Source of the DNA: Saccostrea echinata
Taxonomy: Eukaryota
Direction: 5' to 3'
Assembly: GCF_033153115.1 (NCBI RefSeq)
Contig: NW_026889803.1
Coordinates: 2,046,001 to 2,110,000, forward strand
Length of the DNA: 64,000 bases
Below are positions 10,387-15,336 of the stretch, piece after piece (the first letter of the stretch is position 1; every line of letters starts with the position of its first letter). The position numbers and the translations under genes were made by a program. The notes under the pieces are model-generated. The model was not told the DNA's origin, searched no databases, and saw nothing but the letters and a program-made list of their open reading frames with translations.

Positions 10387-13300
10387 TCAGCAATTACTAC
10401 CTAATTTGTGTTTTCTGAGGACAGGGTTAGATCCTCTGCCCTCGTGTACAGTTTCAGTCAAGGGTCCTTGTGATTCCGTCTGACCAGCATTAAAATAAAC
10501 GTCTTCCAACTTGTTGCAAGACTTCTTTGATGTAGTACGATGATGGCTTCTATGAGAACGATGTGATCGATGCGATCTCATAGAGTTCGTATCATTTGTG
10601 TCCCTCGATGATCTTTGTGATCTAATAGAAGCCGTGTCGTTTGTATCAAGTGAAATATTTCTTTCCGCTAACCTTGACGAAGGTTGTGTATATGCAGAGT
10701 GCACTGAGGAACAACTCGTGCAGTTAGAGGAAGTTCTCAGAAAATCCCGCCTTCTCCTGTGTCGTCTGCAAGATGAACAATAAAGTCGTCCACGAGTTGA
10801 ACCAGATGTTGAGGCAGTTGGCGTACTTGGTTGAATTTCAATCCTAGGGGCCTGTGATGGGGCTACACTTGGTTGAGTCTCATATGAGAAATTCCTGTAA
10901 TAACGAACATCGTCGACATACGACGAAGTTGTATCTGCTGATGATACAGTAGATGACGCAAGTGTTTGTACACTGTCAACTCTTGGAGGAACTGTAGGGT
11001 TTCCGACTGCGGGTTGAGCTGGTGGAAGCAAATGGTTGGCTGGCTCAGATATTGGTGAGGTTGGGTCGGTTGGGATACGAATTGTGTAACGATTTCCACC
11101 TCGTGGACGCATAAATATGGTGTCATAAACACTGTTCATGTTTATATTCTTCCTATATGTGATCATAATAAATTTTAGATATTGTGCACTTTGAAACTGA
11201 GAAATCAAGTTTATTACAAAATCAGACTAGAATTTAAAAATGCTTATTTACAATGTACATGTATGTGTATTTTTGTTCTATTTTACACAATGTAGATGTT
11301 TATCTCTGTTTTTATGAAATGTTTCACTTTTTACAAATTTATTTCACCTAGCTATTAATTTTCGAACGCTGAACAGTTTACCTTTTGCAGAAAATTATGC
11401 TCCCTATGCAGATAAACAATGACATCACAGCCACAGCAACGGATAAACTTGTCCAGATTATTTCCTGTAATCCTTTTGAATCTGCCGAATCAATTGAGTA
11501 CATTTATACATTTTTATCATTGCAGAAATTTCAGGTAATATGACGTCCTTACTTTTCAATGAATTACCTGAAGAGGATTTTTCATTAATTCATAAATCAT
11601 TAATTTCTAGATGATTGATTTCAATTTCAATAAACCTGGTACATAAATGGTTTGGAGCATATAACTAAGTATTTCTATTTATATATTAATTTTTGATATC
11701 ATACCTTCTTCTTTGCCGTTCATAGGATTCCAGCGATCAGCAGTATGTGGAGTAAAAATAGTTTGATATTCCATTTTAACTTCTCTATATTCAACTGTGG
11801 AAACCATTATCGAATATCTTGTATCTGTTAATATAATGTTAATCAAATGTTATTCCATTAATTCTTTTCGATTGCAACTTTAAATCAAACAGCCTATCAA
11901 GTGAAACCCGTGGCTTTCAAACTAATAACTTTGAAGCTAAATATTGATAGTTTTTGAGCAAGAAAGAAATAAAATATTAATTAGCACATGGTAAGAAATA
12001 TTATCGCATATCATGTAAGCTTGTCTCCGTACACGGATTTATATCAGTAACCCTTAGTCATAATGTTTGCCATTCAAGAAAATTAAAGTCCTTTCGGGTG
12101 TAGTTTAGAAATGAAGATTGTGTGATGCCTTATAACTGATTTCCTGGAGGTCACGTGACTCCTCTTTCTCTGTTTTCATTTACTCAGCTACATGTAGATC
12201 AAAACAATTCTAGGAATGAATTCAATTTTTACATTGACTCCTTATAGACAATTTATCAAATTTTCTTATTGTAGAACTTCACATGTGAAATGTGTACGTA
12301 TCAGGTATATATCTTATAAATTACTATAATACAGCAAATGGTTCGAACTCAGAGAAAAATGTGGGTGTTTACATCCCATACATCACATCCTTTGGTTTTG
12401 TTTTCAAAAAAGTTCCATTGACGTATCTTACGAAAAAGACTTCTAAACCTTTACATTTAGGATCACTTCAGAACTTTTTATATAAGAGGACATATGCATA
12501 GTAAGAAGACTTTGCAGTGTTGTAAATATGTAAAAGAATTGGGAAAGTTTCATACAAATTACACACAAATATCATTATCATCATCCCATTTTATGAAAAG
12601 GCAACGAAAAATAACAAATTAAGCTATAAAATCAAATAAATATTTCCCAAGAAAAAATCTTCCTGAATTGTATAATTGTATATGGCTTACCATGCTCACA
12701 GAGAGCTTTGTGGAATTCATTACATTCTGTGTACATCCTCCGAAATTCTTGTCCATGCTTTCTTGCCATTGTGCACTTGACATCTGCTGAATCTTTGAAA
12801 AGAAGCACATGTAATTATTTACTAGTCAAATTGAAATACAGGTATATTGCATTTTAACATACATAATTTGAATTATCAATAATGTCCCTTTAATATTTTT
12901 ATAAATATATAATCTGACAGTATGAGGAATATTGTAAAGAAGCTTATCACATATCTTATATTCTGTAAATAAATTTGATATTTGATTCGCTCATTCAGAC
13001 CAGGAACAGAAGCTTCACAGCCTCTTGAAAGGTTGAAGGGTTTATGTGTATTCATACTTTGTAAAGCAATGTTGTTGATGATAAATTCTTCTCCATCTAA
13101 AAATCTAGATATTTCGTGCCGTAATTTTGCAATCATAGAATAAGTAATGTTGATAATATAGTTGTTCCATCCACAGTATTTTCGTATTGTCACTTCTCCA
13201 TTCGCTATGATAAACAAAGGAAATAATTCTTTAGTTGGAAATATTCTAATAAGTTCCATGATATGCTTCTCATGTTATGTCGTCGGTGGATGTTAATGTT

Positions 13301-15336
13301 TTGGTGTTTTTGCTTTCTTTTTCCTTTTTTTTTTTTTAAAAATTGTGTTAATTTGATTGTTTTAACAATAAAAAAAATAGGTATTTCCAAGACTATTTTT
13401 ATCAAGCATAAGTGAATAAGATTGTACATGACTGCTTATAAGATTTCTCACCATTTTGACAGAGATAGAGTAGGTCGTGGCTGAGGAACCGTCGGTGTCT
13501 TTCTATTACATGAGAACATATTCCATCTTACAAGGAAGAAAGATCCACAGGTCAAATATATAATATTAAACATGCAAAAATCAAGATTTCTTTGTAAGAA
13601 GCTAATTGTCCTGCTAATGAATAGTAGAACAACATGACCTTCTCTAAAAATAAAAACGCATACTTCATATGTATTATTTCCACCGACGTTTCATATTTTC
13701 TAAAATTACACGACTTCATTTATTCAAAATCAATTTGTTAATTTTTACACAGTATTCATGATTCTAGAATCAATTAGAAGTGATGGGCATGAACAGAGAT
13801 TAATAATATAATAATTTATATTGAATAAATGCATGACAATTCAAATACTAAACTAATACTCACCTAGGCTGGTTTTCGCTAAACCAGATCCATGGTTTCT
13901 ACACTATACACAAAATATGCAAATATTTGTCTTTTTCTAAAATTTTCTATTATTTTCATGGAAAATATTTTTTGTGAACTTAGATATACTCCAAGAAGCA
14001 GAGCATTGAAAAACGTAACGTTTGCCAATCATAACTTGGTTTACGCTTCTACTGAAGAACTTCACAAGGACGTATATCAATGGAATTATTTCAAAATTAT
14101 TTTCAATTTTTTGTAACTGGATATAAAAAATTTCCTATTTAAAACAAATTTTCTTTTTAAAATTCATGAAACAACAAACTCAGCCCCAGCCCCCTTGTAA
14201 ATGGACTGGGAGGGATCTCTTGACAAAGTTGCAAACGAAATGATTTGGTTTTTTATTTCTAAATTAAAAAAAAACCTTACTTTCATGCAAATCCTCCATG
14301 TAAATTTGAGGAAAAATCATAGGGGTATTTATTATTATCATTATTATTATTCTTTAAAAGTTTATATTAAGGTTTATAAATCATAAATCATAAATCAGAA
14401 TAAGTGTCTAACAGCGAAAAAAATCGTCAATATACCAACTTTTCCAATCATTTATCAACTCGCAAAGGAAAAGGTATATTGTATGAGCAATTCATTGATG
14501 GCTATGCATTGTGAATTAGAATTCTTTGTCACTCAAGCCTTTTTGAGTCATAGACCTCTTATAAAGTACACTTTAAAGCCAAGCAACAAAATATTTGGAC
14601 ATATGGAATGTAGACCACACAGTGCAGTGCTCAGTCTTATGTAAGACCCGTAGAACATGTGCCCCCTTTTTCATGAGTATAGTATTCTGCTATAGTAAAT
14701 TTCCTTTTAGATGATGGTTGCCCCCCCCCTCCCCCACTTTTTGATGTAAGGTCGAGCATTGGCAAATTTCAGGGTTTAGACAGTAAATTAGCTTTTTTTT
14801 GTGTCAAATGATGTTGGAAAGTTGCCCTCCCCACTTTTGAAACCGTCGCTACGGGCCTGTATAAATACTATTATTCTTGCCTCTACATCCTAGGTCATAA
14901 GCAATATTGTCAAGCCAGAAACTCTCGTAGTCCTGCATCGATAGAAGGTTATAGTACACGGTTGTATCGGGTATATCACCCGCCAGATGCCTGTATCCAG
15001 AGCCATTAAATTTCTTATGACAAATCTTGTCCGCATCCTGCCACACCATTGGGTGCTGTGTTGCCAACATTTGTGTTTTTCCGAAGGAGACTGACAAAAA
15101 AAAAATGTATTTCTTGTTGAATATAATGGGAAAAAGTGTCAATGACATGAAAATTTATGACGATAGAAAGCGAAGTTTAACGGTATGCATGGCTTTTTTA
15201 ATTGTCCTCTAATGAGTACCATTTTCAACCCTACCAAAACAAAACCTTATAAATGTATCATTTTGTTAAGATCATCATAGCAAAAATACTCACCTATGGG
15301 TAGGAGTGTAATTTTAATCCAAAATAGCAATTTCAT
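10387..15336 (-). CDS. Type-I transmembrane protein with degenerate C-type-lectin-like ectodomain(s) and a long Ser/Thr/Arg-rich cytoplasmic tail (~539 aa, or 544 aa with an optional microexon)
   Basis: Hand-spliced exons: 15336-15294 (MKLLFWIKITLLPI, signal peptide), 15090-14881 (VWQDADKIC...SFWL; GC donor), 13526-13452, 13204-13001, 12792-12691 (KCTMARK..TECNEFHKALCE), 11824-11705, optional 11567-11553, 11481-11382 (TM IIWTSLSVAVAVMSLFICIGSIIFC), 11152-10387. All junctions are phase-compatible with AG acceptors and the frame has no stops. The donor after 13001 (GTCTGA) is weak. Confidence 0.8.
14644..14858. mobile_element. Short poly-C MITE in intron 2 of the lectin-like gene
   Basis: Imperfect TIRs AGACCCGTAG...CTACGGGCCT with internal C-runs. 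Confidence 0.5.

What the first reader, a model, noticed from the sequence alone, without database searches (positions are those of the whole stretch)
10387..15336. Unrecognised lectin-like receptor with an ITIM-like motif and a cytoplasmic C2C2 zinc-ribbon-like motif
Seen: a signal peptide, two shortened CTLD-like modules (W-x-D-A-x3-C ... FW; C-x13-C-x7-C), one TM helix, then SVYDTI a few residues past the membrane, which matches the ITIM consensus [S/I/V/L]xYxx[I/V/L]. Further Tyr sites follow, and CSSC-RRHRRRRDFLRTSSN-CTSC lies inside a disordered tail. Established: ITIMs recruit SHP/SHIP phosphatases. No EPN/QPD/WND sugar-binding motifs are visible. Inference: an invertebrate inhibitory immune or allorecognition receptor whose tail carries an NLS-like Arg run bracketed by Zn ligands. 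This is an unusual architecture and could allow signalling by a cleaved intracellular domain. The ORF track shows it only in fragments.
Basis: partly seen in the sequence, partly recalled or inferred. Interest (0 to 1): 0.7.

Follow-up and report, generated by a model that had tools for sequence, protein, structure and literature searches.

The report
Oyster lectin-fold receptor with zinc-motif tail
This is a real, spliced oyster gene for a likely cell-surface receptor whose outer part is predicted to be one C-type-lectin-shaped domain that lacks the usual sugar-binding motifs, and whose inner tail keeps a tyrosine motif and a four-cysteine, likely zinc-binding motif, so it likely passes signals through adaptor proteins rather than being a classic inhibitory immune receptor.

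Summary
The gene is real. Every named relative found is from oysters: a long-tailed group (two tandem copies here) and a short-tailed sister group. An AlphaFold model of the orthologue's ectodomain (pLDDT 82) matches ONE C-type lectin-like domain end to end, with a 74-residue, two-exon insert where the sugar-binding loop normally sits; it is not two modules, and no sugar motifs occur in 19 of 19 relatives. SVYDT[IV] and all four cysteines are kept in 12 of 12 aligned proteins. But the ITIM pattern is weak (31% of shuffled tails match), it is single, and its invariant Asp at pY+1 blocked SHP1 binding in a PD-1 study while fitting Nck-type YDxV sites. Four R-x-x-S-hydrophobic sites add to a docking-scaffold reading. 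The two paralogues differ in the head (dS 1.5) but share a likely gene-converted tail core (dS 0.2). Zinc binding, ligand, partners and cleavage are untested. Verdict: new variant of single-CTLD type I receptors; interest 0.4.

The parts
15294..15336 (-). exon 1: start codon and most of the likely signal peptide (aa 1-15)
14881..15090 (-). exon 2: N-half of the CTLD (beta1, alpha1 with W31-A34-C38, HLA, W73 at the WIGL position); ends at a GC donor
13452..13526 (-). exon 3: first part of the 74-aa insert (C88, C107)
13058..13204 (-). exon 4: second part of the insert (C120, predicted helix and strands)
12691..12792 (-). exon 5: C-half of the CTLD, C165-x16-C182-x7-C190
11705..11824 (-). exon 6: stalk
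11382..11481 (-). exon 7: transmembrane helix (11461-11390) followed by invariant C264 and a basic stop-transfer run
10401..11152 (-). exon 8: most of the cytoplasmic tail
11116..11133 (-). SVYDTI (Y275), ITIM-pattern / YDx[VI] motif inside the conserved block SxYDT[IV]FxRPRG
10969..10983 (-). RVDSV, R-x-x-S-hydrophobic site 1
10882..10896 (-). RNFSY, R-x-x-S-hydrophobic site 2, running into YETQ
10711..10779 (-). CxxC-x15-CxxC with an Arg-rich linker (C391, C394, C410, C413), putative zinc site
10648..10662 (-). RNISL, R-x-x-S-hydrophobic site 3
10570..10986 (-). tail core (aa 322-460) likely homogenised with the tandem paralogue by gene conversion
8992..9402 (-). 3' untranslated stretch covered by contigs of run X3
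   Evidence: table 8

Best explanation
A spliced oyster gene encodes a likely single-pass receptor whose predicted lectin-fold head carries an insert in place of the sugar-binding loop and so likely binds a protein ligand, and whose conserved tail likely acts as a phosphorylation-controlled docking scaffold, with the YDT[IV] tyrosine predicted to recruit an Nck-type adaptor rather than an inhibitory phosphatase. Shown: gene structure, conservation of the motifs, absence of sugar motifs, family limited to oyster records. Predicted: one CTLD fold (C38-C190, C165-C182) with a 74-residue insert stabilised by two more cysteine pairs. Inferred, untested: ligand binding clusters the receptor; a Src-family kinase phosphorylates Y275; an Nck-like SH2/SH3 adaptor docks and links to actin (adhesion, spreading or uptake); Akt/CaMKII-type kinases and 14-3-3 tune the tail at up to four R-x-x-S-hydrophobic sites; the CxxC-x15-CxxC motif binds zinc and forms a small protein-binding knot in an otherwise disordered tail. 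Tandem paralogues would feed different ligands into the same signalling core, and the short-tailed sister gene would be a non-signalling or modulating form.
For: Gene model. Fold: model of orthologue P0001 (83% identical in the ectodomain) pLDDT 81.7, pTM 0.78; wide structural search lists 50 rows at Z 7.3-9.7, each spanning model ~1-178 against a single domain, 49 of them CTLD/Link-fold proteins by title or recall; best second-look row Z 10.6, 117 aligned, rmsd 4.3, and the top rows are CTLDs with an extended long loop. Profile test: N-part matches a CTLD N-half (P 0.0018), C-part matches C-x7-C (P 0.007), insert does not (P 0.26-0.56). The insert is exactly exons 3-4, at the known intron site downstream of WIGL (PMC514892 passage); EPN/QPD come from the long loop (PMC4432315 passage) and are absent in 19 of 19. 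Tail: S273, Y275, D276, T277, F279, R281-G284 and 18 of 24 positions around the C4 motif are invariant in 12 of 12 proteins (several are close alleles, 4 named genera). YDxV binds Nck SH2 (passages of PMC3507883, PMC12203975); Asp at pY+1 failed to recruit SHP1 (PMC8631942); SHP2 N-SH2 wants a hydrophobic pY-2 (PMC7337045), here Ser. Four R-x-x-S-hydrophobic sites against 1.1 expected (P 0.019); 2 to 4 in each of 12 tails; RXXS/T is the CaMK2/Akt/14-3-3 core (PMC11845518).
Against: No ligand, partner, phosphorylation, tissue or zinc data. Z-scores of 8-10 are middling by the tool's own note and Foldseek gave no E under 0.001 (best 3.3e-3); no Pfam Lectin_C match; Atlas scores 0.77 and 0.89 are leads only. 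The model is of the orthologue and I saw ranges, not residue pairs; a first, poor model (pLDDT 47) matched residues 95-142 weakly to a CTLD (Z 2.2), so the insert may be a relic of a second CTLD. Nephrin uses three YDxV sites; this tail has one, and YDT-I rather than -V in 9 of 12. The tighter R-x-x-S-hydrophobic-[DE] pattern (P 0.00015) was chosen after seeing the sequence. The C4 motif has only sub-threshold Pfam hits (E 0.08-2). SH2 preferences come from human proteins.
Confidence: 0.42

Rival explanations
1. A true inhibitory immune receptor: phosphorylated SVYDTI recruits the oyster SHP2-type phosphatase or SHIP and dampens haemocyte activation, like CD72, KLRG1 or Ly49.
For: Matches the consensus S/I/V/LxYxxI/V/L (PMC8631942); -2, Y and +3 kept in 12 of 12; near the membrane; CD72 CTLD is the top row (tied with others); ITIM receptors exist in invertebrate allorecognition (PMC12582321); Ser at -2 occurs in real ITIMs (recalled).
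Against: Pattern is common by chance; single motif, no tandem partner for two SH2 domains; invariant Asp+1 and Thr+2 are not asked for by ITIMs and Asp+1 failed for SHP1; small family, dN/dS 0.20 and few differences in the head; vertebrate CTLD-ITIM receptors are type II (recalled).
Confidence: 0.2
2. An endocytic or sorting receptor: YDTI is a Yxx-hydrophobic signal for AP-2, and the tail's serines control recycling.
For: Y-D-T-[IV] fits Yxx-hydrophobic in 12 of 12 (motif class recalled); type I CTLD proteins are often endocytic (recalled).
Against: Does not explain the invariant F-x-R-P-R-G block, the C4 motif or the conserved last exon; not exclusive of the main reading.
Confidence: 0.15
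3. The four cysteines are lipidation or redox sites that, with the Arg run, tether the tail to the membrane; there is no zinc fold.
For: Polybasic run plus cysteines is a known membrane-anchoring arrangement (recalled); no zinc-finger family passes its cut-off; no solved relative.
Against: Two exact CxxC pairs at fixed spacing 15 in 12 of 12, with invariant D-F between them; 4 of the 5 different weak Pfam hits are zinc- or metal-binding families.
Confidence: 0.12
4. The tail is released by intramembrane cleavage and enters the nucleus through the Arg run, where the zinc motif binds nucleic acid or chromatin proteins.
For: Arg-rich run is conserved (RR[HN][RK][RK][RK]RDF); basic residues follow the TM as in many cleaved type I proteins (recalled, not discriminating).
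Against: No call gives evidence of shedding, cleavage or nuclear location; the motif has no DNA-binding family match above cut-off; an Arg run inside a 15-residue zinc loop may not be free for importin.
Confidence: 0.05

Closest known systems
Single-CTLD type I membrane proteins: layilin/MT-75 (group VIII) and Bimlec/CD302 (group XV)
   Same: Signal peptide, one CTLD, stalk, one TM, cytoplasmic tail (groups named in PMC514892 passages; cytoskeletal links recalled).
   Different: 74-residue insert in the long loop, 272-residue tail with a C4 motif; no sequence-level match; resemblance is by architecture only.
ITIM-bearing CTLD receptors (CD72, KLRG1, Ly49, NKG2A, CLEC12A)
   Same: Non-sugar-binding CTLD fold and an ITIM-pattern tyrosine.
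   Different: Those are type II with the ITIM N-terminal (recalled); here type I, single motif, Asp at pY+1.
Nephrin / Tir / A36-type YDxV docking tails
   Same: Membrane protein tail with Y-D-x-[VI].
   Different: No homology; one site instead of three; different ectodomain; binding untested.
CTLDs with an extended long loop (snake-venom CTL-like chains, BDCA2, mannose receptor CRD-4, NKR-P1A)
   Same: Best structural rows: the loop after beta2 extends away from the core.
   Different: There the loop is of normal length and swaps between chains (recalled); here it is replaced by a two-exon subdomain with its own cysteines. Fold likeness only, no functional link.
Invertebrate allorecognition and resistance receptors (Botryllus FF/FcoR, Biomphalaria TM1 clusters)
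   Same: Lineage-restricted single-pass receptors in tandem, some with tyrosine motifs.
   Different: Those are large, polymorphic Ig or scavenger/fucolectin families; this is a small, conserved CTLD family.

Membership tests
C-type lectin-like domain superfamily | CTLD fold | tested here: met
   AF2 model of the orthologue, pLDDT 81.7; Z up to 9.7 (wide) and 10.6 (second look), lists dominated by CTLDs; Foldseek best E 3.3e-3
C-type lectin-like domain superfamily | four canonical cysteines C1-C4 and Trp of the WIGL strand | tested here: met
   C38, C165, C182, C190 and W73 equivalents invariant in 19 of 19; disulfide pairing itself not seen
C-type lectin-like domain superfamily | Pfam Lectin_C match above cut-off | tested here: not met
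   0 of 8 and 0 of 10 proteins matched
Ca-dependent sugar-binding C-type lectins | EPN/QPD-type and WND motifs | tested here: not met
   none of EPN, QPD, WND, EPD, QPN, EPS, QPG in 19 of 19 or the window protein
Two-CTLD (tandem) receptors | two sets of CTLD landmarks | tested here: not met
   one C1-C4 set; insert does not match a CTLD N-half profile; a relic second half is not excluded
ITIM inhibitory receptors | S/I/V/LxYxxI/V/L in the tail, conserved | tested here: met
   12 of 12
ITIM inhibitory receptors | small non-polar pY+1 and/or tandem motifs for two SH2 domains | tested here: not met
   Asp invariant at pY+1; one motif in the window protein; a second, non-shared pattern match in 4 of 12 tails
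ITIM inhibitory receptors | phosphorylation-dependent SHP/SHIP binding and inhibition | not testable with these tools
   needs pull-down and cell assays
Allorecognition receptors | large, highly polymorphic family with diversifying ectodomain | tested here: not met
   2 long-tailed and 2 short-tailed loci found in G000 (lower bound); dN/dS 0.20 between paralogues; 2 listed ectodomain differences in 4 runs, which drop rare and distant alleles
Zinc ribbon / C4 zinc finger | two conserved CxxC knuckles | tested here: met
   12 of 12, spacing 15
Zinc ribbon / C4 zinc finger | match to a known family or fold; zinc binding | tested here: inconclusive
   only sub-threshold hits, none in PDB sequences; the tail was not folded
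Nck-docking YDxV tails | pY-D-x-V/I motif | tested here: met
   YDTI in 9, YDTV in 3 of 12; 4% of shuffled tails match
Nck-docking YDxV tails | Nck SH2 binding after phosphorylation | not testable with these tools
   needs binding assay
Receptors with regulated intramembrane proteolysis | shedding, intramembrane cut, nuclear fragment | not testable with these tools
   no call bears on it

The most novel reading that the evidence does not exclude
An oyster-invented receptor system: a lectin fold whose sugar loop was replaced by a two-exon ligand-binding subdomain, wired to a tail with its own four-cysteine zinc switch; tandem copies keep different heads but are kept on one shared signalling core by gene conversion, and a short-tailed sister acts as decoy or co-receptor. 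The zinc knot could make signalling depend on cytoplasmic zinc or redox state in animals known (recalled) to hoard zinc.
Probability: 0.2. Interest if true: 0.68.

Novelty: new variant of a known kind. Interest (0 to 1): 0.4.

Why it matters
Bivalve genomes hold many unannotated single-pass proteins that Pfam misses. This one shows a CTLD that is invisible to profile searches because a subdomain sits in its long loop, a cytoplasmic C4 motif that I found in no other protein family, and paralogues with diverged heads on a homogenised tail. It gives a small, conserved, directly testable case for asking which SH2 proteins read ITIM-like motifs in molluscs; it also warns that an ITIM pattern alone is weak evidence. 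The reach is limited: only oysters, no phenotype, no ligand.

Tried and rejected
First fold from 6 sequences was poor (pLDDT 46.8); its search gave one row at Z 2.2. PDB sequence searches: 3 weak CTLD hits at E 0.08-0.19, 4 weak hits of which 3 were phosphatase chance matches, none with the 20-sequence profile or the C4 peptide. P0027 (fish Ig-repeat protein) among the 23 hits was dropped as a chance match. No RNA holder is on record as RNA; contig depth was not used for expression level. Heterodimer of long- and short-tailed ectodomains: no answer (score 0.00, alignments not used). Internal repeat between the N-part and the insert: none. Recalled likeness of the C4 motif to Stc1/endonuclease-VII knuckles: not borne out by Pfam or PHROGs; one search gave only listings. 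Other genes with the C4 motif in G000: only the paralogue, plus one hit at E 0.73 not followed. Rfam on the window: nothing. Literature: six gene ids of relatives in 0 papers' main text; topic searches listed nothing on this family; supplements were not searched and expression tables there may list these genes. Earlier findings near the place or by sequence: none.
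Full report
Gene model. The finding lies on the minus strand. Contigs of four public runs (guessed to be RNA; at most 3 samples, 2 studies) skip seven introns with GT-AG or GC-AG ends, giving exons 15336-15294, 15090-14881, 13526-13452, 13204-13058, 12792-12691, 11824-11705, 11481-11382 and 11152-10401. Three runs showed a loose end at 10401; it maps to a ninth exon, and the joint 10401/9470 stands in 2 of 4 runs. 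The protein has 538 residues: likely signal peptide (by eye), ectodomain, one hydrophobic peak at 240-263, and a 272-residue tail.

Family. Searches with the tail (8 hits), the ectodomain (5 hits), a profile against 1.84 billion representatives (23 hits, one dropped as a chance Ig match) and a wider profile (16 hits) returned named proteins only from Saccostrea, Ostrea, Crassostrea and Magallana, all 'uncharacterized', plus unnamed records. G000 holds a tandem paralogue about 19 kb away, which translates to P0003 (546 of 547 residues mapped; labelled Saccostrea echinata), and two near-identical loci of a short-tailed sister. Long- and short-tailed ectodomains fall on two sides of a 100/100 branch, at 24-29% identity. 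Absence from other molluscs is a search blank, not proof.

Ectodomain. Pfam finds nothing. With 20 sequences AlphaFold2 gave a confident model of the orthologue P0001, residues 18-222 (pLDDT 81.7, pTM 0.78; 83% identical to the window's ectodomain). The wide structural search lists 50 rows at Z 7.3-9.7; 49 are CTLD- or Link-fold proteins by title or my recall, one (a Bdellovibrio domain) I cannot place; each aligns 76-112 residues over model ~1-178 to one domain. The second look reaches Z 10.6 and favours CTLDs with an extended long loop; Foldseek's best E is 3.3e-3. Profiles made from oyster CTLDs of G000 match the N-part (P 0.0018, with W73 on the WIG tryptophan in the end-to-end alignment) and the C-x7-C end (P 0.007), but not the middle (P 0.26-0.56); these profiles are shallow. 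The long loop normally supplies EPN/QPD (PMC4432315, passages); no such motif occurs in 19 of 19 relatives, and the C2-C3 spacing is 16-17, not 13. Against this reading: I saw ranges only, and a poor first model matched 95-142 to part of a CTLD at Z 2.2, so the insert could be the relic of a second domain.

Tyrosine motif. SVYDTI sits ten residues after the membrane. The ITIM pattern also matches four places in the ectodomain and 31% of shuffled tails (1.8% within 15 residues of the tail start). Conservation is real: SxYDT[IV]F in 12 of 12 aligned proteins, followed by invariant RPRG; several rows are close alleles. What is conserved goes beyond an ITIM: Asp+1 and Thr+2 are invariant. In PD-1, Asp at pY+1 failed to recruit SHP1, and ITIM receptors work best with tandem motifs (PMC8631942, passages); SHP2 N-SH2 prefers a hydrophobic pY-2 (PMC7337045, passages), here Ser. 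Phosphorylated YDxV motifs recruit Nck and reorganise actin (PMC3507883 and PMC12203975, passages). These data are from human proteins, the tail has one such site, and Ile replaces Val in 9 of 12, so the Nck reading is a lead. Y288 and Y420 are also invariant; YETQ (a Yxx-Q pattern, recalled as STAT3-type) stands in 9 of 12.

Serine sites and C-terminus. Four R-x-x-S-hydrophobic sites (RVDSV, RNFSY, RNISL, RMFSV) occur against 1.1 expected (P 0.019), with 2-4 in each of 12 tails. RXXS/T is the minimal CaMK2 site, overlapping Akt and 14-3-3 motifs (PMC11845518, passages). The last sits in exon 9, where 13 of 22 positions are invariant and dN/dS between paralogues is 0.05 on 21 codons.

Cysteine motif. 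CxxC-x15-CxxC is present in 12 of 12, with 18 of 24 positions invariant against 19 of 103 in the following stretch; chance in shuffled tails is 1 in 10,000. Listed differences in the runs across 390-413 are mostly silent (9 of 11; some may come from the paralogue). Pfam gives only sub-threshold hits, mostly to zinc families; PDB none; in G000 only the paralogue has it. Zinc binding is plausible, not shown; lipidation is a rival. Nothing bears on cleavage or nuclear entry.

Paralogues. Synonymous distance is 1.5-1.6 in the ectodomain but 0.20 in tail residues 301-430 (Fisher P 2e-13). Columns that group orthologues across the two Saccostrea species drop from 32 (aa 88-232) and 17 (233-321) to 0 (322-460) and return to 9 afterwards; DNA identity peaks at 87-98% over 11020-10601 and mismatches are clustered (0 of 5000 permutations; selection on the motifs also contributes). 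Gene conversion is the simplest account; only one column shows a species-specific pattern, so much of it may predate the species split. The head shows dN/dS 0.20 and two listed differences in four runs, unlike the large polymorphic Botryllus families (PMC12582321, passages).

Mechanism and verdict. Shown: gene, architecture by sequence, conservation, oyster-only records. Predicted: one CTLD with an insert. Inferred: protein ligand, Src-type phosphorylation, Nck-type docking and actin link, kinase/14-3-3 tuning, zinc knot (0.42 as a package); ITIM inhibition 0.2; sorting signal 0.15; lipidated cysteines 0.12; cleaved nuclear tail 0.05. It works most like single-CTLD type I proteins of groups VIII and XV (PMC514892, passages) but is no member by sequence. 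No paper on the family was found (main texts only). For mollusc context I saw passages of PMC5877582 and the abstract and passages of PMC13712769. New variant of a known kind; interest 0.4.

Noticed in passing
window ~7006-8995: Young multi-copy repeat with long terminal direct repeats 1275 bases apart and ATTG-rich arrays; at least 40 copies at 96-100% identity in G000; very deep contigs in all four runs; it abuts the gene's 3' untranslated stretch. No long ORF, no Rfam match. Looks like a non-autonomous element; class not determined.
   Followed up: partly
G000:C54:2036574-2043391 (L003, L004): Tandem paralogue with the same nine-exon layout (P0003); tail core nearly identical to the window gene, head 58% identical.
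   Followed up: yes
G000:C54:~28447400-28455300 and G000:C62:~4526000-4530000 (L018, L019, L023, L026): Short-tailed sister gene (P0014) present twice in near-identical form; on C54 it lies just upstream of a gene with SAM and TIR exons and a long exon that looks SARM1-like (name recalled).
   Followed up: partly
window 10991-11004: A 30-base in-frame insertion in the Pro-rich part of the tail in contigs of 3 of 4 runs, matching the repeated unit that is longer in relatives: a length polymorphism.
   Followed up: partly
window 14880: GC-AG intron after exon 2, supported in 4 of 4 runs.
   Followed up: yes
window 11567-11610: Exon-like stretch with a strong donor and an in-frame stop inside intron 6; skipped by contigs in 4 of 4 runs.
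   Followed up: partly
window 16361-17594 and 26768-27613: Two near-identical alpha/beta-hydrolase (Abhydrolase_3) genes on the minus strand upstream of the receptor (only the first scanned).
   Followed up: partly
window 20007-22089 and 31636-32868: Two copies of a reverse-transcriptase element (weak RVT_1 match; Penelope-like by recall); the second is in several frames.
   Followed up: partly
window 43029-45596: Two long minus-strand open frames (161 and 310 aa) with similar segments and no Pfam match.
   Followed up: no
P0021, P0057, P0008: Database forms of relatives lack the part equal to exon 4, exon 3 or part of exon 2; possible splice variants that remove part of the insert, or gene-model errors.
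   Followed up: no
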